IMG/VR virus record: IMGVR_UViG_3300029749_000255
DNA: 6,229 nucleotides
Reading direction: 5' to 3' (one strand)
Origin: a virus
Taxonomy: Duplodnaviria; Heunggongvirae; Uroviricota; Caudoviricetes
The translations under genes were made by a program, and so were the position numbers. Positions 1 through 5,852 of this stretch are shown piece after piece (position 1 is the stretch's first letter; every line of letters starts with the position of its first letter). The notes below the pieces were generated by a model. The model was not told the DNA's origin. It did not search any database and saw only the letters and a list, made by a program, of their open reading frames with translations.

Positions 1-192
1 TCCATTAAAAATGATGGACATTATTTTTGTAGAGCCGGAGGAAACAGACCAGACGGTTTAAATGAGCCGGTTACTTTAAATACCGGGACAGTCCGCTTTA
101 TTACCGGACTGCACGGGAGGCTTTGCGCCTTGAACAGTCCAGCGGGTACGACCGGGCGATGCAGGTCTGGGCCAAAGCGAACGTCGGTTTGA
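1..192 (+). CDS. Possible 3' end of an upstream gene continuing beyond the window; product unknown
   Basis: Frame 1 is open from the window edge to a TGA at 190-192 (63 codons). The peptide has no motif I recognise and is Cys/Gly/Arg-rich, so it may equally be non-coding. Two overlapping minus-strand ORFs (21-296, 101-412) look spurious. Confidence 0.25.
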   Translation, partial: SIKNDGHYFCRAGGNRPDGLNEPVTLNTGTVRFITGLHGRLCALNSPAGTTGRCRSGPKRTSV

Positions 193-239
193 TTTTTGTC
201 TGATGCAGAACATGCGCGAAAAGCGTAAGGAGGTGGACG

Positions 240-434
240 ATGTCTAATATCGATAATAAAGGTTGGGGGTTCCCCGCCCTGTCGAAAAAAGCACATTTCT
301 TTAATTCGGGGGAAGCCATATCACTATGCGGAAAATGGATGTTCACAGGTATCAGGATTGACGAATGGCATGACCATCCTGAGAACTGCGCTATCTGCAT
401 GAAGAAACGCAAAAAGCAGGAAGGCGAAAGCTAA
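240..434 (+). CDS. Small Cys/His-rich hypothetical protein (possible zinc-ribbon), phage-associated
   Basis: 64-aa ORF with a strong Shine-Dalgarno (TAAGGAGGT at 226-234) 5 nt before the ATG at 240. The C-terminal half carries C-x(13)-H-x-H-x(3)-C-x(2)-C, a plausible metal-binding knuckle, and a basic tail. Its TAA stop overlaps the next ATG (TAATG, 432-436), indicating translational coupling. Confidence 0.55.
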   Translation: MSNIDNKGWGFPALSKKAHFFNSGEAISLCGKWMFTGIRIDEWHDHPENCAICMKKRKKQEGES

Positions 435-718
435 TGGCCTATGAACGTGAAAACCTAATCGAAAAGCACCTCGTCGCTGAAGTAAAAAAGGCTGGCGGGG
501 TTGCCTTTAAGTTCGTATCTCCCGGTCTCCGCTCGGTACCAGATCGCATTGTTCTGCTACCCGGCGGTCGCATCGTCTTTGTCGAATGCAAAGCACCAGG
601 CAAACCACCACGACCTGATCAGTTGCGCGAGCATGAACGTCTGCGAAAACTGGGCTTTACCGTGGTAGTACTGGATAGTAAGGAGCTTTCATGTATATTA
701 GGCAAAAAATTACAATAG
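434..718 (+). CDS. VRR-NUC domain nuclease (PD-(D/E)XK superfamily)
   Basis: 94-aa protein with the VRR-NUC layout: GxxxKF ... PDRIVLL ... FVECK ... QLREHERLRKLGFTVVVL (a D ... E-x-K catalytic motif). The start overlaps the upstream stop. The last ~12 codons lie in AT-rich DNA and may be a replaced C-terminal tail. Confidence 0.8.
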   Translation: MAYERENLIEKHLVAEVKKAGGVAFKFVSPGLRSVPDRIVLLPGGRIVFVECKAPGKPPRPDQLREHERLRKLGFTVVVLDSKELSCILGKKLQ

Positions 719-733
719 GAGTCTGTGTAAGCT

Positions 734-1651
734 ATGGCTAAGCAACAAACGAAAGAAATAAACCAAGATGATGTAAAAGACAACAAAAATATGCCACCTC
801 ATATATGCGGCATTATTATGCCAATTGCGGACATAGAAGGTTATCCCACTGGACATTGGAGAAATGTTCATGACATTATTTGTGAAGCATCAAATGATGC
901 CGGATTCAAGGCAAATTTGGTAAGTTCAGATGATGATGTTGCAGTAATACAAAAACGAATTGTTCAAAATCTTTATGAAAACCCCATAGTTGTTTGCGAT
1001 ATAAGTGCTCGAAACGCTAATGTAATGTTTGAATTAGGAATGCGTCTCGCATTTGACAAACCGACCGTAATTATTAAGGACGAGCGCACTCCTTATAGCT
1101 TTGACATTTCATCAATTGAACATTTAGAGTACCCTTCGGATTTAAGATACCAATCAATCAATTTATTCAAAGAAAGACTTGCGAGCAAGATAAAAGAAAC
1201 ATATTTAAAGTCAGTAACTGATCCTGAATACACAACATTCCTCAAACATTTTGGCACTTTCAAAGTTGCACAACTAGACCAGAAAGAAGTATCAGAAACT
1301 GAGTATCTGGCATCTGAGATTAAAGATATCAAATCATTATTGATATCTCTTAGGGCAACAGCAACGACAAAATCCAGATTTTTCGACTCACCGAAAAATT
1401 ACTCGCAGCAGGAAATTGACAACTCTGTAGATATTATTAAAAATGGAGTTGCCAGTTATACTATAAGGAGTGAAGGATTTAGTATATCAAAATCAGCACT
1501 AGAAAAGTTACGCCAAAGACTACACAACGCAGGATTTCAAGTCGAGCAAATAGTATTGACAGGAAAAGAAGTAATTATTCATCTGTCATCACCTTTAATA
1601 AATGAAGAAGAAAATATTTTTAAAGATGCAATAGTAACAGCACTATTATAA
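734..1651 (+). CDS. Hypothetical protein with an N-terminal nucleoside 2-deoxyribosyltransferase (NDT)/TIR-like Rossmannoid domain and a C-terminal domain of unknown function; candidate defence or anti-defence effector
   Basis: 305-aa ORF, by far the longest in this stretch. Hand-sampled GC is roughly 28-40% against roughly 55-70% in the flanking helicase. The N-terminal ~120 aa match the NDT/DNPH1-like pattern: a beta-strand IIMPIAD, then PIVVCDISARNANVMFELGMRLAFDKPTVII, with Glu100 (nt 1031-1033) in the E-L-G position of the family's catalytic glutamate. The C-terminal ~180 aa are charged and helical with no motif I recognise. AGGAG at 717-721 sits 12 nt upstream of the ATG. Confidence 0.75.
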   Translation: MAKQQTKEINQDDVKDNKNMPPHICGIIMPIADIEGYPTGHWRNVHDIICEASNDAGFKANLVSSDDDVAVIQKRIVQNLYENPIVVCDISARNANVMFELGMRLAFDKPTVIIKDERTPYSFDISSIEHLEYPSDLRYQSINLFKERLASKIKETYLKSVTDPEYTTFLKHFGTFKVAQLDQKEVSETEYLASEIKDIKSLLISLRATATTKSRFFDSPKNYSQQEIDNSVDIIKNGVASYTIRSEGFSISKSALEKLRQRLHNAGFQVEQIVLTGKEVIIHLSSPLINEEENIFKDAIVTALL

Positions 1652-1663
1652 ATAACATTTTTA

Positions 1664-1699
1664 AAACAACAAAAGGTCTAAATTGGCCTTTTGTTGTTT
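1664..1699 (+). terminator. Perfect 13-bp hairpin (A/U-rich stem) between the AT-rich ORF and the helicase RBS; possible weak intrinsic terminator or attenuator
   Basis: AAACAACAAAAGG (1664-1676) pairs perfectly with CCTTTTGTTGTTT (1687-1699) around a 10-nt loop. The helicase Shine-Dalgarno AGGAG follows immediately at 1700-1704. The stem is AU-rich, so termination efficiency is uncertain. Confidence 0.4.
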
Positions 1700-1713
1700 A
1701 GGAGCCATATTAT

Positions 1714-3108
1714 ATGCCCCCAAAATATATACCTCGCCCCTACCAAGTTCTCATTATCAACCACGAAACCGAAACCCTGCGCGGCAACATCTGGGCGGGG
1801 ATGGGAATGGGTAAAACCGTGGCAACGCTCACTGCGCTGGAAGATCTCTTTATGGCAGGGGCAGAAACATGCCCCGCACTGGTCCTCGCGCCGCTGCGCG
1901 TGGCTGCCAGCACATGGCCGGATGAAGCACTGAAGTGGGGACATTTGCGCAATATCGAGGTGCAGCCAATTATTGGTAATGCCAAAGCGCGCTCTATGGC
2001 GCTGACGAACAGCAACGCAAGCGTGTTCACCATCAACTACGATAACCTTGTCTGGCTGATTGAAGAATTGGGAGAACGATGGCCGTTCGGTACTGTCATT
2101 CCAGATGAAAGCACCCGGCTAAAATCCTTCCGGCTGCGCGGTGGTGGTAAGCGCGCGGCGGCGCTGGGCAAAGTGGCGCATAAGTATGTCCGGCGCTGGA
2201 TAAATCTCACCGGTACGCCAGCACCGAACGGCCTGGTAGATTTGTGGGGACAATCGTGGTTTGTGGACCAGGGGCAACGTCTCGGGCGCACTTACGGCGC
2301 GTTTACCTCACGCTGGTTCAACTCGATACAGTTTCCGGGGCAGAGCTGGACCAAACTGGAGCCTTTTGCTCACTCACAGGGTGAAATACAGCGAGCGTTA
2401 GCCGATGTAACCCTCTCGCTGGATGCGGCCGACTGGTTCGATATCAAAGACCCCATCCATAACGTAATCCGCGTGGATATGCCACCGAAGGCCCGTCAGC
2501 AGTATCGTGAAATGGAAAAGGAAATGTTCCTCGAGCTGAATGGCGAAGGCATCGAAGCACCGAACGCCGCGGCAAAGACACTGAAGTGTCTGCAAATCGC
2601 CAGCGGCGCAGTATACACAGATGACACCGGAAGTTGGTCAGAACTGCATGACACCAAACTACAGGCGCTGGACAGCATACTGACCGAAGCAGCTGGCGCA
2701 CCTGTGCTGGTTGCTTATCACTGGAAACACGATCTTGAACGCTTGCTTAAAGCATTCCCTCGCGGTCGTCACCTCGACCAGGATCCACAGACACTGCGCG
2801 ACTGGAATTCCGGAAAGATTCCTGTTCTCTTTGCACACCCAGCCAGCGCGGGCCACGGCCTGAACATGCAGGACGGCGGAAATATACTGGTATTTTTCTC
2901 ACACTGGTGGGACCTGGAGCAATATCAGCAAATTATTGAACGTATCGGCCCCACCAGGCAGATACAGGCCGGACACAATCGTCCGGTATTTATTCACCAC
3001 ATTATTGCTGCCGACACTATGGATGAAATGGTGATGGAGCGGCGCAACTCAAAACGAACAGTGCAGGACATCCTGCTCGATGCCATGAAAAAGAGAGGTA
3101 TAGCATGA
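1714..3108 (+). CDS. SNF2-family (DEAD/DEAH-like superfamily 2) helicase, phage-type
   Basis: 464-aa protein with Walker A GMGMGKT (nt ~1798-1818), a DExx box (IPDESTRL), the SNF2-typical motif III LTGTPAPNGL, and a C-terminal helicase domain (HGLNMQ ... QQIIERIGPTRQ). AGGAG at 1700-1704 sits 9 nt before the ATG. GC is high. Confidence 0.9.
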   Translation: MPPKYIPRPYQVLIINHETETLRGNIWAGMGMGKTVATLTALEDLFMAGAETCPALVLAPLRVAASTWPDEALKWGHLRNIEVQPIIGNAKARSMALTNSNASVFTINYDNLVWLIEELGERWPFGTVIPDESTRLKSFRLRGGGKRAAALGKVAHKYVRRWINLTGTPAPNGLVDLWGQSWFVDQGQRLGRTYGAFTSRWFNSIQFPGQSWTKLEPFAHSQGEIQRALADVTLSLDAADWFDIKDPIHNVIRVDMPPKARQQYREMEKEMFLELNGEGIEAPNAAAKTLKCLQIASGAVYTDDTGSWSELHDTKLQALDSILTEAAGAPVLVAYHWKHDLERLLKAFPRGRHLDQDPQTLRDWNSGKIPVLFAHPASAGHGLNMQDGGNILVFFSHWWDLEQYQQIIERIGPTRQIQAGHNRPVFIHHIIAADTMDEMVMERRNSKRTVQDILLDAMKKRGIA

Positions 3109-3305
3109 GCGAGAAACCCGACGATTTACTCACCCCGGATGAAGTATGCCAAAAGTTAGGTATTACACAGAAAACGCTATGTGAGTGGAATATTAAGCAT
3201 CGTCATCGGGCTATCCTGGCACCAATTCGTTTCAGTGCAAAAGTAGTTCGTTATGAGCGCCGAAATATCGACGCTTTTATTCAAAAATGTCGCAGCCAGT
3301 ATTAA
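3105..3305 (+). CDS. AlpA/excisionase-like helix-turn-helix DNA-binding protein (candidate Xis or regulator)
   Basis: 66-aa protein whose LLTPDEVCQKLGITQKTLCEW ... VVRYERRNIDAFI resembles the AlpA/Xis (HTH_17-like) signature (LxxxEVxxxxGxSxxTIYR ... RWxxxDIxxWI). Its start overlaps the helicase stop (ATGA, 3105-3108), with a GAGAGG Shine-Dalgarno at 3093-3098. It lies next to the integrase. Confidence 0.75.
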   Translation: MSEKPDDLLTPDEVCQKLGITQKTLCEWNIKHRHRAILAPIRFSAKVVRYERRNIDAFIQKCRSQY

Positions 3306-4699
3306 CCTCGCCGCCGTAGCAATGCCACCTGCGCAAGTATGCTCCGCTCGTGAGCCTCGAAAGCTTCGCGCTTCAACGCAATCTCTTCCTGTAAAATCTC
3401 ATCAGAAAAGTCGTAATGTTCTGCCATCGGGTCATCTGACTTGCTGGAGTGGTGAAGGCAAAGGAGGCTGATTTCCCTTCGGTCTGAGCGGGAATAGCCT
3501 CTTTCCTTCATCAAGGCAATAACATTGCTCTTAAGGAATTTACGGCACATCGTATTAAATGCACCGTCTTTCCCTTTAACAGTCCCATCATGTTTTATTC
3601 CTTTTACAGCCCCGTCCGGGCTGTATGTTTTCACCAGCTTATCCAGTGATCGTTTTGAAAATGGCTGCATTGGATCACGTGGCTGCAAAAATACATAATC
3701 CCTGTTGCACTCAGGAACTGAATCACGCCAGGCTTTCTGCTCGTCGATAATCCGCCGGATCTCAGGGGTTATCGGCAGGCGGAAAGCCTTTTGTGTTTTC
3801 ATAGCCCCTCGCATGCCGATAACCCCTTCCGGATAAACAATTTCACCAGCCTCCTCGTGAACGTAGTCCCAGCGCAGGTTATGGACATTAATCGGACGAA
3901 CACCAGTGATGATCATGAAGCGAACAGCATTCTTCTGGTGTACAGAGGTGCAGGCAGCAACATTGAGCCAGAGTCGGGCGATTGATTCAATATCGGTAAA
4001 AAGCCGTGTGGGGGTAGGTTTCTGTACGCGGGAGGAAACATAATCATCTGGCAGACTGGCGGCAACATTGCGGCCGTTGCAAAGAGTAGGTGCGCAGAAC
4101 TTCCAGAACCGACGGAGCTCGGCAAACAACTCCAGGGCGTTATTGTTCGAGCGAGTAGCGATCCACTCGTCCAGCACTTCCACCAGCCGATTGTATGTTA
4201 CGTCGCTGAACACCTCGCGCTCGCCGAACGTTGCTTTAATCCGGTCGATACGCACCCCGTAGGTTGTGAAACTGTCCGGGCTCAGCTTCTGCCGGGCGAC
4301 TTTGGCTTTGAGGTCATCCCGGTACATTTCCAGCGCTGCATGTACGGACTCTGCCCGCAGGCCACCGTCAGCCATACCTAGCGCTTTTTCGCGCGCCAGC
4401 TGGATAGCGAGCTCCGGCCACTCGCCGAGCTTTTTACCTTTGAGGCCCATCTTTTTTGGAAACTCGGCGTAAAATGTAACCTTACCGGCTTTGCTGAAAT
4501 CGATACGGAGATAGTTCTCTTTTTCGTATTTGGAACGGCGAGCCACGCCGGAAGCAGCGAGGATGATTTTGGCGGCAGCAACACAGATTTTCATGTGTGC
4601 GCTGGTATAGGGGGGTTTACAGGCGTCCCATTTTTCAGATGCGGCTAAAACATCGTCATTATTGGGGCTATCCGGATTATGTGTTACAGTGCGCGGCAT
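3302..4699 (-). CDS. int: Tyrosine site-specific recombinase (phage-type integrase) with an N-terminal arm-binding-like region
   Basis: Long minus-strand ORF. The C-terminal catalytic region contains a candidate Arg I (ITGVRPINV), a CRKF segment at the HxxR position, LHH (the LGH-like His) and a Tyr 12 residues later (AEHYDF). The N-terminal KYEKENYLRIDFSKAGKVTFYAEF resembles an arm-type binding domain. The ORF track starts at a TTG (4705); I prefer the ATG at 4699, preceded by AAGGA and a 6-nt spacer. Confidence 0.85.
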   Translation of the reverse strand: MPRTVTHNPDSPNNDDVLAASEKWDACKPPYTSAHMKICVAAAKIILAASGVARRSKYEKENYLRIDFSKAGKVTFYAEFPKKMGLKGKKLGEWPELAIQLAREKALGMADGGLRAESVHAALEMYRDDLKAKVARQKLSPDSFTTYGVRIDRIKATFGEREVFSDVTYNRLVEVLDEWIATRSNNNALELFAELRRFWKFCAPTLCNGRNVAASLPDDYVSSRVQKPTPTRLFTDIESIARLWLNVAACTSVHQKNAVRFMIITGVRPINVHNLRWDYVHEEAGEIVYPEGVIGMRGAMKTQKAFRLPITPEIRRIIDEQKAWRDSVPECNRDYVFLQPRDPMQPFSKRSLDKLVKTYSPDGAVKGIKHDGTVKGKDGAFNTMCRKFLKSNVIALMKERGYSRSDRREISLLCLHHSSKSDDPMAEHYDFSDEILQEEIALKREAFEAHERSILAQVALLRRRG

Positions 4700-4705
4700 T
4701 CTCAA

Positions 4706-5506: not shown

Positions 5507-5535
5507 NNNNNNNNNNNNNNNNNNNNNNNNNNNNN
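5507..5535. other. Run of 29 N (assembly gap or masked bases) inside the shoB leader / shoB-ohsC regulatory region
   Basis: Directly visible in the sequence; the true length and content are unknown. Confidence 0.99.
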
Positions 5536-5774: not shown

Positions 5775-5852
5775 GTTGAGGGTGCGTGCTGCACAAAATT
5801 AAAGTTGTAAAGTAAACCCCCTGTTCCTTACCAGTTCGGGGGTTTTACTTTT
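5775..5852 (+). ncRNA. ohsC: Candidate OhsC antitoxin sRNA of the shoB/ohsC type I TA locus; boundaries approximate
   Basis: A plus-strand promoter-like pair (-35 TTGTAA 5738-5743, 18-nt spacer, -10 CATAAT 5762-5767) predicts a start near 5775. A GC-stem hairpin at 5812-5848 followed by a U-tract (5849-5853) predicts a ~78-nt transcript. Known synteny places ohsC between shoB and acpS, divergent from shoB. The sequence was not matched from memory. Confidence 0.35.
5812..5848. terminator. Rho-independent terminator hairpin, probably bidirectional (candidate ohsC on plus, acpS on minus)
   Basis: AAACCCCC (5814-5821) pairs with GGGGGTTT (5838-5845) around a 16-nt loop. A T-run follows on the plus strand (TTTTACTTTTT) and a U-rich tract follows on the minus strand. 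It lies 24 nt downstream of the acpS stop (5872-5874). Confidence 0.55.

What the first reader, a model, noticed from the sequence alone, without database searches (positions are those of the whole stretch)
670..1713. Sharp boundaries of the AT-rich cassette: replaced VRR-NUC C-terminal tail and a perfect hairpin just before the helicase RBS
Composition switches from GC-rich to AT-rich inside the last ~12 codons of the VRR-NUC ORF (the tail KELSCILGKKLQ follows the domain end FTVVVLDS). It switches back right after a perfect 13-bp hairpin (1664-1699) that abuts the helicase Shine-Dalgarno. This suggests a ~1 kb insertion between two ancestrally adjacent genes (VRR-NUC and SNF2 helicase, which are commonly neighbours in phage genomes), giving VRR-NUC a chimeric C-terminus. 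The hairpin may insulate or couple helicase expression.
Basis: partly seen in the sequence, partly recalled or inferred. Interest (0 to 1): 0.5.

Follow-up and report, generated by a model that had tools for sequence, protein, structure and literature searches.

The report
AT-rich accessory gene cassette in prophage
A ~1 kb AT-rich accessory gene (a classic phage "moron", apparently with its own promoter and terminator) sits in a highly swappable slot between a nuclease gene and a helicase gene of an E. coli prophage, and it encodes an uncharacterised TIR-like enzyme that is probably an anti-phage defence; the structure is ordinary for phages, but the slot and its cargo are a useful lead.

Summary
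GC drops from 0.50 to 0.34 and returns to 0.53. Maximum-likelihood breakpoints are at 686 (support 643-705) and 1731 (1700-1774). The hairpin at 1664-1699 is real: 13 perfect pairs, 15 with G.U and C-G, z = -4.1.

Window 677-1731 is one allele of a hypervariable cargo slot between the VRR-NUC and SNF2 genes of a temperate enterobacterial phage family. Here it is a prophage next to yfhL.
- About 110 related loci show more than 40 cargo architectures, 41 to 3374 nt.
- One is an empty site (L055), where the two genes overlap by GTGA.
- Sibling phages carry BstA, PDC-S42, methyltransferases or antirepressors there.

- The right breakpoint lies inside the helicase's first six codons, not at the hairpin.
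- The VRR-NUC tail is a diverged homolog of the ancestral tail (SKNLEGIL*) plus five extra residues.
- The hairpin is the cassette's terminator-like element. It is present in every orthologous cassette, and 4 of 14 stem pairs covary.

The cargo (305 aa) has a conserved Cap12-like TIR/NDT core with invariant E100 and a hypervariable ACT-like C-terminal domain. It resembles the single-gene TIR-like defences Swarozyc and Evangelion but is not a DUF4062 member. Function is inferred, not shown.

The parts
434..718 (+). VRR-NUC / PD-(D/E)XK nuclease gene (94 aa). Positions 434-676 are conserved phage backbone.
   Evidence: phrog_93 endonuclease, E 3e-31. Pfam VRR_NUC is sub-threshold, E 0.002. Positions 434-676 are 100% identical to L003.
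677..1731 (+). Variable cargo segment (moron cassette), 1055 nt, GC 0.34.
   Evidence: Homology with sibling prophages stops after ...CTGGATAG and resumes at CCTCGCCCCTACCAAG. Composition breakpoints are at 686 and 1731. The exact cassette is in 24 of 5426 E. coli genomes, always in this slot, and in 3 deposited phage genomes.
677..718 (+). Cassette-borne 3' end of VRR-NUC (SKELSCILGKKLQ*): a diverged copy of the ancestral tail SKNLEGIL* plus a 5-residue extension.
   Evidence: Empty site L055 and most cargo alleles end ...LDSKNLEGIL*. The Klebsiella cassette has SKDLSCILDVNSQHESK* and L131 has SKNLSCILDIN*.
672..699 (+). Sigma-70 promoter-like site TGGATA-16-TATATT straddling the left junction (candidate moron promoter).
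   Evidence: Consensus scan gives 9/12 matches. The same hexamers and spacing are present in the Klebsiella aerogenes cassette. The region as a whole has no excess of such sites over shuffles, so this is only a candidate.
734..1651 (+). 305-aa cargo ORF. Residues ~22-186 form a TIR/NDT-like (Cap12-like) core with invariant E100 in NVMFELG. Residues 188-210 form a helix. Residues ~222-305 form an ACT-like domain.
1664..1699 (+). Terminator-like hairpin: A-tract / GGTC-loop-GGCC / T-tract. It would read the same way on either strand.
   Evidence: With an 8-bp stem the following 8 nt, TGTTGTTT, hold 6 T. Equivalent hairpins follow the gene in all orthologous cassettes. 4 of 14 stem pairs change on both sides and 70 of 70 cells stay paired. 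The sequence is found only in the 24 cassette-bearing genomes, once each.
1700..1731 (+). Cassette-borne translation start of the helicase: SD AGGAG (1700-1704), ATG 1714, first six codons (MPPKYI).
   Evidence: This stretch differs in every cargo allele. The empty site instead uses a GTG overlapping the VRR-NUC stop, behind GGAGGGG.
1714..3108 (+). SNF2-family helicase gene (464 aa). Positions 1732 onward are conserved phage backbone.
   Evidence: Pfam SNF2-rel_dom, E 8e-11. phrog_62 DNA helicase, E 7e-156.

Best explanation
Window 677-1731 is a phage moron: a horizontally exchanged accessory-gene cassette that appears transcriptionally self-contained. It occupies a hypervariable cargo slot between the VRR-NUC nuclease and SNF2 helicase genes, in the replication-gene cluster of a family of temperate enterobacterial phages. 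Here the phage is a prophage integrated beside yfhL.

Ancestral state. The two genes overlap (GTGA) and the helicase is translationally coupled to the nuclease through a GGAGGGG Shine-Dalgarno inside the nuclease tail.

What the cassette brings:
- a diverged nuclease tail;
- a promoter-like element;
- a 305-aa ORF;
- an A-tract/GC-core/T-tract hairpin that most likely acts as the cassette's intrinsic terminator;
- a fresh SD, ATG and six codons for the helicase.

How it moves. Alleles are swapped by homologous recombination in the conserved flanking genes, not by transposition.

Role of the hairpin. It most likely stops transcripts that start at the cassette promoter in lysogens, so the helicase and the downstream Xis-like gene are not transcribed from it. 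Lytic transcription must read through it or re-initiate.

Cargo. The protein most likely is a single-gene abortive-infection defence. A conserved TIR-like N-glycosidase/NADase core (catalytic E100) would be switched on when the hypervariable C-terminal ACT-like domain senses an infecting phage.

Shown: the boundaries, the polymorphism of the slot, the empty site, hairpin conservation and covariation, and fold and sequence affinity to TIR/NDT domains.
Inferred: promoter and terminator activity, the recombination mechanism, and the defence function.
For: Composition and hairpin.

Alternative cargos with near-identical flanks.

Slot survey of ~110 loci: lengths of 41-3374 nt, more than 40 architectures, empty sites in L055, L118 and L121.

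Known or candidate defence genes in the same slot of sibling phages: BstA at E 1.4e-115 and PDC-S42 at E 6e-40.

The same cargo gene sits in the same slot in phages of Klebsiella (75% aa identity), Enterobacter (69%) and Providencia (58%). Each copy has its own terminator-like hairpin. 4 of 14 stem pairs covary.

The gene is AT-rich (0.32-0.38) whatever the host GC (flanks 0.41-0.61).

No terminal repeats or target duplications at the boundaries. The hairpin is not a dispersed repeat.

The cargo is disrupted by IS1 in one genome and by a 4-nt duplication in the deposited phage genome vB_EcoM-606R2. It is therefore dispensable.

The moron definition (GC differs from neighbours, own promoter and terminator, extra DNA relative to related phages) is from PMC3594210.

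Cargo protein:
- TIR effector model hit in 65 of 65 members;
- invariant E100;
- core identity 0.71 against 0.12 for the C-domain;
- homologs in a lambdoid nin-region slot and at the edge of a Pseudomonas integrative element;
- characterised analogues with the same core-plus-variable-auxiliary logic.
Against: No expression data.
- The promoter match is 9/12, and the region has no excess of such matches over shuffles (7 found, 5.1 expected).
- The consensus terminator scan did not call the hairpin. Its G+C core is only 4 bp (-4.0 kcal/mol alone), and the U-tract is part of the 3' arm, so termination may be weak.

The gene is co-oriented with the flanking replication genes, so it could simply be expressed with them during lytic growth.

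Covariation in a DNA palindrome can also arise by DNA-level, hairpin-templated processes.

TIR assignment:
- it rests on sub-threshold Pfam hits and one PADLOC model;
- a profile search of PDB sequences found nothing.

The family has no PADLOC model of its own, and no paper was found for it or for the phages.
Confidence: 0.8

Rival explanations
1. The cargo is a lytic-cycle gene rather than a lysogenic defence. It would be an NDT/MilB-like nucleotide or nucleoside N-glycosidase, or a signal-degrading TIR-like enzyme, expressed with the replication genes to remodel nucleotide pools or to counter host immunity. The hairpin would then be an mRNA-stabilising or attenuating element.
Against: A hypervariable C-terminal domain on a strongly conserved core (0.12 against 0.71 identity) is the pattern of sensor-effector defence proteins. 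A terminator and a promoter-like site of its own, together with strong AT-richness, fit lysogenic expression. Homologs also occur outside phages' replication modules, at the edge of a small Pseudomonas integrative element. The gene is disrupted in a deposited phage genome.
Confidence: 0.22
2. The AT-rich gene is an ancestral part of this phage lineage. The empty and alternative slots arose by deletion or replacement, so nothing was inserted here.
For: The same gene sits in the same slot in phages of four genera at 58-89% identity. This implies long residence or repeated exchange. No empty slot is found among 135 complete E. coli genomes.
Against: Distant relatives (VRR-NUC 48-50%, SNF2 57-64% identical) have the two genes directly adjacent or overlapping (L118, L121). 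Composition differs by 16-20 GC points from both flanks in every host. The family also occurs in unrelated contexts. Cargo identity (75%) is lower than flank identity (84-94%) in the Klebsiella phage, which argues against simple co-descent.
Confidence: 0.07
3. The hairpin is a recombination or regulatory site rather than a terminator. Examples would be an attC-like or boundary sequence that mediates cassette exchange, or a structure that masks the helicase ribosome-binding site.
For: It lies at the 3' edge of the cassette and abuts the helicase SD. Its pairing is maintained by covariation.
Against: The homology breakpoint is 32 nt downstream of it. Other cargo alleles have unrelated or no hairpins at that place, and several keep start/stop overlaps instead. 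The sequence occurs nowhere else in 5426 E. coli genomes. The SD (1700-1704) is outside the stem and unpaired in the centroid structure. All orthologous versions have the stem plus T-run form of intrinsic terminators, and the Providencia one is a canonical stem followed by T8.
Confidence: 0.05

Closest known systems
Phage morons (Juhala et al. 2000; Cumby, Davidson and Maxwell 2012, PMC3594210)
   Same: Extra DNA between two genes that are adjacent in related phages. GC content differs from the neighbours. A gene flanked by a promoter-like site and a terminator-like hairpin. Dispensable for the phage.
   Different: The cassette does not sit in a clean intergenic gap. It replaces an overlapping stop/start junction and therefore carries rebuilt ends of both neighbours: the nuclease tail, and the helicase SD, ATG and six codons. 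Promoter and terminator activity are not demonstrated.
Phage accessory regions and defence hotspots (Silas et al., bioRxiv 10.1101/2023.04.06.535777; from my own knowledge, the P2/P4 hotspots of Rousset et al. 2022)
   Same: Conserved core genes frame a slot whose content changes among near-identical phages. The content includes known defence genes (BstA, PDC-S42), methyltransferases and antirepressors.
   Different: I found no description of this particular slot (VRR-NUC | SNF2 in yfhL-type prophages) in the searched literature. Absence from that library does not prove it is undescribed.
Swarozyc / Evangelion: single-gene DUF4062 TIR-like NADase defences (bioRxiv 10.64898/2026.05.01.722283 and 10.64898/2026.06.25.731849)
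   Same: A single protein with a conserved TIR-like core carrying a catalytic Glu (E97 in KpSwz; E100 is invariant here), joined to a diversified auxiliary C-terminal region. Carried on mobile elements.
   Different: No DUF4062 (PF13271) match in any of 65 members. The nearest sequence models are the Cap12-type TIR and NDT families. The auxiliary domain here is a small ACT-like fold. No activity or defence phenotype is known.
Cap12 / PycTIR TIR effectors of CBASS and Pycsar (Pfam PF10137; PADLOC PDLC00733)
   Same: Best sequence model and best structural match for the core. The NV(m/i)FELG motif is shared with the PF10137 protein encoded in the neighbouring slot of the same prophage.
   Different: No cyclase, STING, SAVED or cNMP-binding partner or domain. 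It is a stand-alone gene in all contexts examined. Pfam scores are below the gathering threshold.
BstA prophage abortive-infection protein (Owen et al. 2021, PMC8585504)
   Same: A ~300-aa single prophage gene occupying the very same slot in sibling phages, so it is functionally analogous cargo.
   Different: Unrelated sequence and fold. BstA lies on the opposite strand in the slot.

Membership tests
Phage moron | Extra DNA between two genes that are adjacent in related phages | tested here: met
   Empty site L055, with a GTGA overlap of VRR-NUC and SNF2. Distant relatives L118 and L121 are also adjacent.
Phage moron | Base composition different from the surrounding genes | tested here: met
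   GC 0.338 against 0.497 and 0.534. logL gain 51.4 against at most 7.9 in shuffles.
Phage moron | Own factor-independent terminator | tested here: inconclusive
   A stable hairpin with a T-rich 3' arm, conserved in kind and covarying among orthologous cassettes. The consensus scan did not call it and activity was not measured.
Phage moron | Own promoter, expressed from the repressed prophage | tested here: inconclusive
   TGGATA-16-TATATT matches 9/12 and is conserved in the Klebsiella copy. The region has no excess of such sites over shuffles, and no transcript data are available with these tools.
Phage accessory region / defence hotspot | Conserved flanking core genes with highly variable content among close relatives | tested here: met
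   More than 40 architectures in ~110 loci, with flanks mostly 90-100% identical.
Phage accessory region / defence hotspot | Content includes known defence or counter-defence genes | tested here: met
   BstA at E 1.4e-115 and PDC-S42 at E 6e-40. A DNA cytosine methyltransferase is annotated in L005. DUF6338.
Cap12/PycTIR TIR domain (PF10137) | Pfam model match above the gathering score | tested here: not met
   Best E 0.011, 16.2 bits against a cut-off of 24.7. 14 of 65 members match at E <= 0.1.
Cap12/PycTIR TIR domain (PF10137) | TIR/flavodoxin-like fold with a conserved catalytic Glu after the central strand | tested here: met
CBASS / Pycsar system | Adjacent nucleotide cyclase and a signal-binding domain on the effector | tested here: not met
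   No cyclase in any of the contexts examined. The C-terminal domain is ACT-like, not STING, SAVED or cNMP-binding.
DUF4062 defences (Swarozyc / Evangelion) | DUF4062 (PF13271) core domain | tested here: not met
   No PF13271 hit at E <= 0.1 in 65 members.
DUF4062 defences (Swarozyc / Evangelion) | NAD+ depletion and abortive infection dependent on the catalytic Glu and the auxiliary region | not testable with these tools
   Requires phage challenge and NAD+ assays.
Nucleoside 2-deoxyribosyltransferase family (PF05014) | Pfam model match above the gathering score | tested here: not met
Transposon / IS-type insertion | Terminal inverted repeats and target-site duplication at the boundaries | tested here: not met
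   No repeats at 677 or 1731 beyond chance-level matches.

The most novel reading that the evidence does not exclude
The 305-aa protein would define a large, uncharacterised family: about 9400 clusters at 50% identity, across Gamma- and Betaproteobacteria. Its members would be stand-alone TIR-like effectors with a hypervariable ACT-like sensor domain. That would make it a new single-gene anti-phage defence, parallel to but distinct from the DUF4062 systems, carried as a self-contained moron that hops between prophage cargo slots. The VRR-NUC | SNF2 slot would be a previously unmined defence hotspot whose other unknown cargos are also immunity genes. These include several reverse-strand membrane proteins, a three-gene module containing PDC-S42, and a 108-aa protein.
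Probability: 0.45. Interest if true: 0.6.

Novelty: new member of a known kind. Interest (0 to 1): 0.4.

Why it matters
The boundaries and the hairpin are textbook moron anatomy, so the finding as written is not surprising. Three things add value.

1. The slot is an unusually clean natural experiment in how phages splice cargo into an overlapping gene pair. Each cassette rebuilds the end of the upstream gene and the start of the downstream gene. Unrelated methyltransferase cargos even acquire the same ...YDLI* terminus from the shared right boundary.

2. The slot is a rich and apparently undescribed hotspot that already contains BstA and PDC-S42. Its unknown cargos are therefore good candidates for new defence or counter-defence genes.

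3. The cargo here belongs to a very large TIR/NDT-like family with no known function. Its conserved core and hypervariable C-terminus mirror TIR-like NADase defences described in 2026, so a defined experiment can test it directly: phage challenge with the E100A mutant as control.

Tried and rejected
- Transposon or IS-like insertion: no terminal repeats or target duplication at 677 or 1731.
- Dispersed repeat, REP or attC-like hairpin: the 50-nt hairpin region occurs only in the 24 cassette genomes, once each.
- Known RNA family: an Rfam E-value scan found only ohsC, in the host flank.
- Hairpin masking the helicase SD: the SD is unpaired in the centroid structure.
- Imperfect inverted repeat between the cargo start (733-748) and the hairpin/SD region (1694-1709), 75% complementary: it is not stronger than other chance pairs in this AT-rich kilobase and is not conserved in the Klebsiella copy.
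- uORF 690-740 as a conserved leader peptide: not conserved in the Klebsiella cassette.
- Sequence search of PDB with the protein and with a family profile: nothing significant.
- GiPD474, the Gifsy defence protein: it has an ATPase domain, so it is a different family.
- MAFFT alignment of the hairpins for the count of structure pairs: the stems came out misregistered, so pairs were counted by script from the loop outward.
- Literature search for the protein accession and the phage names: no hits.
- Megablast for an empty site in complete E. coli genomes: none found. The empty site was found only in IMG/VR and in distant genomes.
Full report
**What the window is.** The window is the right end of an E. 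coli prophage.
- On the + strand lie a 64-aa phrog_2358 gene (240-434), a VRR-NUC/PD-(D/E)XK nuclease (434-718), a 305-aa AT-rich ORF (734-1651), an SNF2-family helicase (1714-3108) and an AlpA/Xis-like HTH gene (3105-3305).
- A tyrosine integrase converges on the - strand (3302-4705).
- The host genes yfhL, shoB/ohsC and acpS follow.
- In complete genomes the element is a full prophage. It has terminase, lysis genes, a Q antiterminator, a DUF5906 protein, DUF2800, DUF2815 and a family A DNA polymerase.
- The same sequence is deposited as three Escherichia phage genomes: vB_EcoM-689R2, -611R5 and -606R2.

**Observation.**
- The VRR-NUC protein ends ...FTVVVLDSKELSCILGKKLQ*.
- GC falls from about 0.55 to 0.35-0.39 across 650-750 and recovers past 1700.
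- A two-breakpoint likelihood segmentation gives 686 (support 643-705) and 1731 (support 1700-1774). GC is 0.497 / 0.338 / 0.534. The log-likelihood gain is 51.4, against at most 7.9 in shuffles.
- The hairpin arms 1664-1676 and 1687-1699 are perfectly complementary over 13 nt.
- In RNA the stem extends to 15 pairs, at -20.6 kcal/mol (centroid) and z = -4.07.
- AGGAG follows immediately at 1700-1704, and the helicase ATG is at 1714.

**A variable slot, not a single insertion.**
- Megablast of 1-3400 against 5426 complete E. coli genomes finds the whole segment in 24 genomes. In many others the flanks match at 95-98% but the middle third is missing.
- The 1011-nt core occurs only in those 24 genomes, always in this place.
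- Five sibling prophages carry different genes in the same position:
  - a 265-aa membrane protein on the opposite strand;
  - an Arc/Arc/small-ORF/Rha module;
  - DUF6338 plus a small gene;
  - a Dcm methyltransferase plus a small gene.
- Ungapped comparison anchored on the two flanking genes shows identity ending after ...CTGGATAG (676/677). It resumes at CCTCGCCCCTACCAAG (1732), with further mosaic patches up to about 1782.
- The right breakpoint is therefore inside the helicase's first six codons. The helicase SD and ATG belong to the variable segment.

**Empty sites.**
- A synthetic junction query (434-676 joined to 1732-2031) found the gene pair in 135 E. coli genomes. None had a slot shorter than about 770 nt.
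- I then fetched 80 IMG/VR loci and 36 loci from GTDB species representatives through the helicase protein. Locating both flanks by tblastn gave slot lengths from 41 to 3374 nt.
- L055 has VRR-NUC 93% and SNF2 95% identical and is empty. It reads ...CTGGATAGCAAAAATCTGGAGGGGATATTGTGAGTTCAGTGTTTACACCCCGC....
- There the nuclease ends ...LDSKNLEGIL* and the helicase starts at a GTG that overlaps the TGA stop, behind a GGAGGGG Shine-Dalgarno inside the nuclease tail.
- Two distant relatives (L118, L121) also have the genes overlapping or adjacent. Adjacency with translational coupling is therefore the ancestral state.
- Clustering the ORFs found in the slots gives more than 40 architectures.
- Representative cargos include:
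  - BstA, PADLOC E 1.4e-115;
  - the candidate defence protein PDC-S42, E 6e-40;
  - DUF6338 and a methyltransferase-like protein;
  - Dcm-type and Dam-like methyltransferases, Bro/Rha-type antirepressor-like proteins and several reverse-strand membrane proteins. These last assignments rest on RefSeq annotation and on my reading of the sequences.

**The cassette travels as a unit.**
- Homologs of the cargo sit in the same slot in prophages of Klebsiella aerogenes (75% aa identity, integrated at a different chromosomal site), Enterobacter (69%) and Providencia (58%), and on a metagenomic contig (89%).
- The Klebsiella and metagenomic copies share the left junction CTTTCATGTATATTAG.
- Their nuclease tails are SKDLSCIL... 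and SKNLSCIL....
- The window's SKELSCIL is thus a diverged, in-frame homolog of the ancestral SKNLEGIL. The stop codon is lost and five residues (GKKLQ) are added.
- The promoter-like TGGATA-16-TATATT at 672-699 is preserved in the Klebsiella copy. Its -10 element corresponds to the ancestral GATATT.
- The cassette is AT-rich (0.32-0.38) in backgrounds of 0.41 to 0.61 GC.
- There are no terminal repeats or target duplications.
- Exchange by homologous recombination in the conserved flanks is the simplest mechanism. This is inference.

**The hairpin.** Every orthologous cassette has a hairpin of the same design right after the stop codon:

| Locus | Hairpin |
|---|---|
| window | AAACAACAAAAGGTC-TAAATT-GGCCTTTTGTTGTTT |
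| L131 | AAAACAACAAAAGGCC-TATTTA-GGCCTTTTGTTGTTT |
| L007 | A10GGCC-ATGAC-GGCCT11 |
| L132 | AAAATAAAAAAGGCC-TTGTAA-GGCCTTTTTTATTTT |
| L124 | ...AAAGAAAAAAAGACCA-TGT-TGGTCTTTTTTTCTTT... |
| L100 | canonical stem followed by T8 |

- Counting from the loop outward in five of them, 4 of 14 pairs change on both sides and all 70 cells remain paired. The window's T at 1677 gives a G.U pair.
- The sequence is not a dispersed repeat and matches no Rfam family.
- The consensus terminator scan did not report it. The likely reason is that the T-tract is inside the maximally extended stem.
- Taken as an 8-bp stem (-8.3 kcal/mol), it is followed by TGTTGTTT, which holds 6 T in 8 nt.
- The G+C core is only 4 bp, so it may be a weak terminator.
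- Other large + strand cargos (Rha/Bro types) also end in GC hairpins with or without T-runs before the helicase RBS.
- Small or methyltransferase cargos instead keep start/stop overlaps with the helicase.
- I conclude that the hairpin is the cassette's terminator. The cassette replaced translational coupling with an independent SD for the helicase, so the hairpin insulates rather than couples.
- This rests on anatomy and conservation. No transcript data were available.

**The cargo protein.**
- Neither Pfam nor NCBIfam gives a significant hit.
- PADLOC gives a CBASS TIR-effector model at E 1e-6 for the query, and the model is hit by all 65 aligned family members.
- Sub-threshold Pfam hits go to Nuc_deoxyrib_tr (40 of 65 members) and CAP12-PCTIR_TIR (14 of 65).
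- An AlphaFold model from a 65-sequence alignment (mean pLDDT 72.9) has an N-terminal alternating strand-helix domain, a long helix and a C-terminal beta-beta-alpha-beta-beta-alpha domain.
- E100, in the motif NVMFELG, is invariant. The same motif type occurs in the PF10137 TIR protein encoded one slot upstream in the reference prophage.
- Across the family the core (residues 22-186) has a median identity of 0.71 to the query. The C-terminal domain has 0.12.
- The family is very large: 4466 proteins in the 90% clusters and about 9400 clusters at 50% identity with E <= 1e-3.
- Members also sit in a lambdoid nin-region slot and at the edge of a Pseudomonas integrative element, always as stand-alone genes.
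- The gene is broken by IS1 in one E. coli genome and by a CAAT duplication in the deposited phage genome vB_EcoM-606R2. It is therefore dispensable.

**Comparison with what is known.**
- The anatomy fits the definition of a moron: an addition relative to related phages, deviant GC, own promoter and terminator (PMC3594210).
- The slot fits the concept of a phage accessory region (bioRxiv 10.1101/2023.04.06.535777).
- The cargo's logic is a conserved TIR-like core with a catalytic Glu plus a diversified auxiliary region, in a single gene on mobile elements. This matches the DUF4062 systems Swarozyc and Evangelion described in 2026.
- The protein has no DUF4062 match, so it is at most a parallel family.
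- It is not a CBASS or Pycsar effector in context: no cyclase is adjacent and it has no signal-binding domain.
- I rate the defence reading at about 0.5.
- A lytic-cycle or nucleotide-metabolism role is the main rival at about 0.2. In its favour are the co-orientation with replication genes and the NDT/MilB affinity.

**Verdict.**
- The feature itself is an ordinary kind of thing: a moron in a phage plasticity hotspot.
- The moderate interest lies in the hotspot, which I did not find described, and in the uncharacterised but very widespread TIR-like cargo family.

Noticed in passing
window 1-74 (boundary at 74/75); L001 15169-16000; L006 678-1442: The first 74 bases of the window match none of the 24 E. 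coli genomes or IMG/VR loci that carry the cassette. Those have the 3' end of a 253-aa PF10137 TIR-domain gene plus a GC hairpin and T-run at that position, and another sibling has an Ant antirepressor. This is a second variable cargo slot, between the DNA polymerase gene and the ANR-family gene. This window carries yet another allele, cut off by the window edge.
   Followed up: partly
window 680-740: A 16-codon upstream ORF (ATG 690, MYIRQKITIGVCVSYG*) lies behind a strong AAGGAG (680-685), and its stop overlaps the cargo ATG at 734. It is not conserved in the Klebsiella cassette, so it is probably fortuitous.
   Followed up: partly
window ~1150 (L133 ~3910); NZ_AP045179.1 1259574-1261362: The cargo ORF is inactivated twice independently. 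A CAAT tandem duplication frameshifts it after about residue 141 in phage vB_EcoM-606R2. An IS1 (~778 extra nt) interrupts it in E. coli JNEC-KY203. This points to dispensability and possibly a fitness cost.
   Followed up: partly
L005, L064, L076, L080, L081, L087, L103: last ~25 nt of the slot: Unrelated + strand cargo proteins (Dcm-type, small methyltransferase, PAPS-reductase-like, Dam-like) all end in ...(G)YDLI*. Their ORFs run into a shared right-boundary sequence, TATGACCTCATCTAAAATTTTCAC, which also contains the helicase ATG. This is the mirror image of the chimeric VRR-NUC tail.
   Followed up: partly
L042, L059, L067, L026, L064 (slot, - strand); L035-L037, L046, L073 (slot, - strand): Sibling phages carry BstA (PADLOC E 1e-115) or a three-gene module including the candidate defence protein PDC-S42 (E 6e-40) in the same slot. 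Several other reverse-strand membrane proteins there (clusters C9, C22, C23, C36, C17) have no annotation at all.
   Followed up: partly
window 5775-5851 and 5507-5535: The host flank contains the ohsC antitoxin sRNA (Rfam RF02495, 99 bits), matching the shoB/ohsC locus annotated in the reference genome. A 29-nt run of N masks part of the region.
   Followed up: no
window 75-253 (L001 15995-16173): RefSeq annotates a frameshifted ANR-family transcriptional regulator pseudogene just upstream of the 64-aa ORF in all sibling prophages except L006, where it is intact at 72 aa.
   Followed up: no
window 1087-1098 / 1461-1472: A perfect 12-nt inverted repeat (CACTCCTTATAG / CTATAAGGAGTG) lies inside the cargo ORF, with 362 nt between the arms. 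It is probably chance in AT-rich sequence.
   Followed up: no
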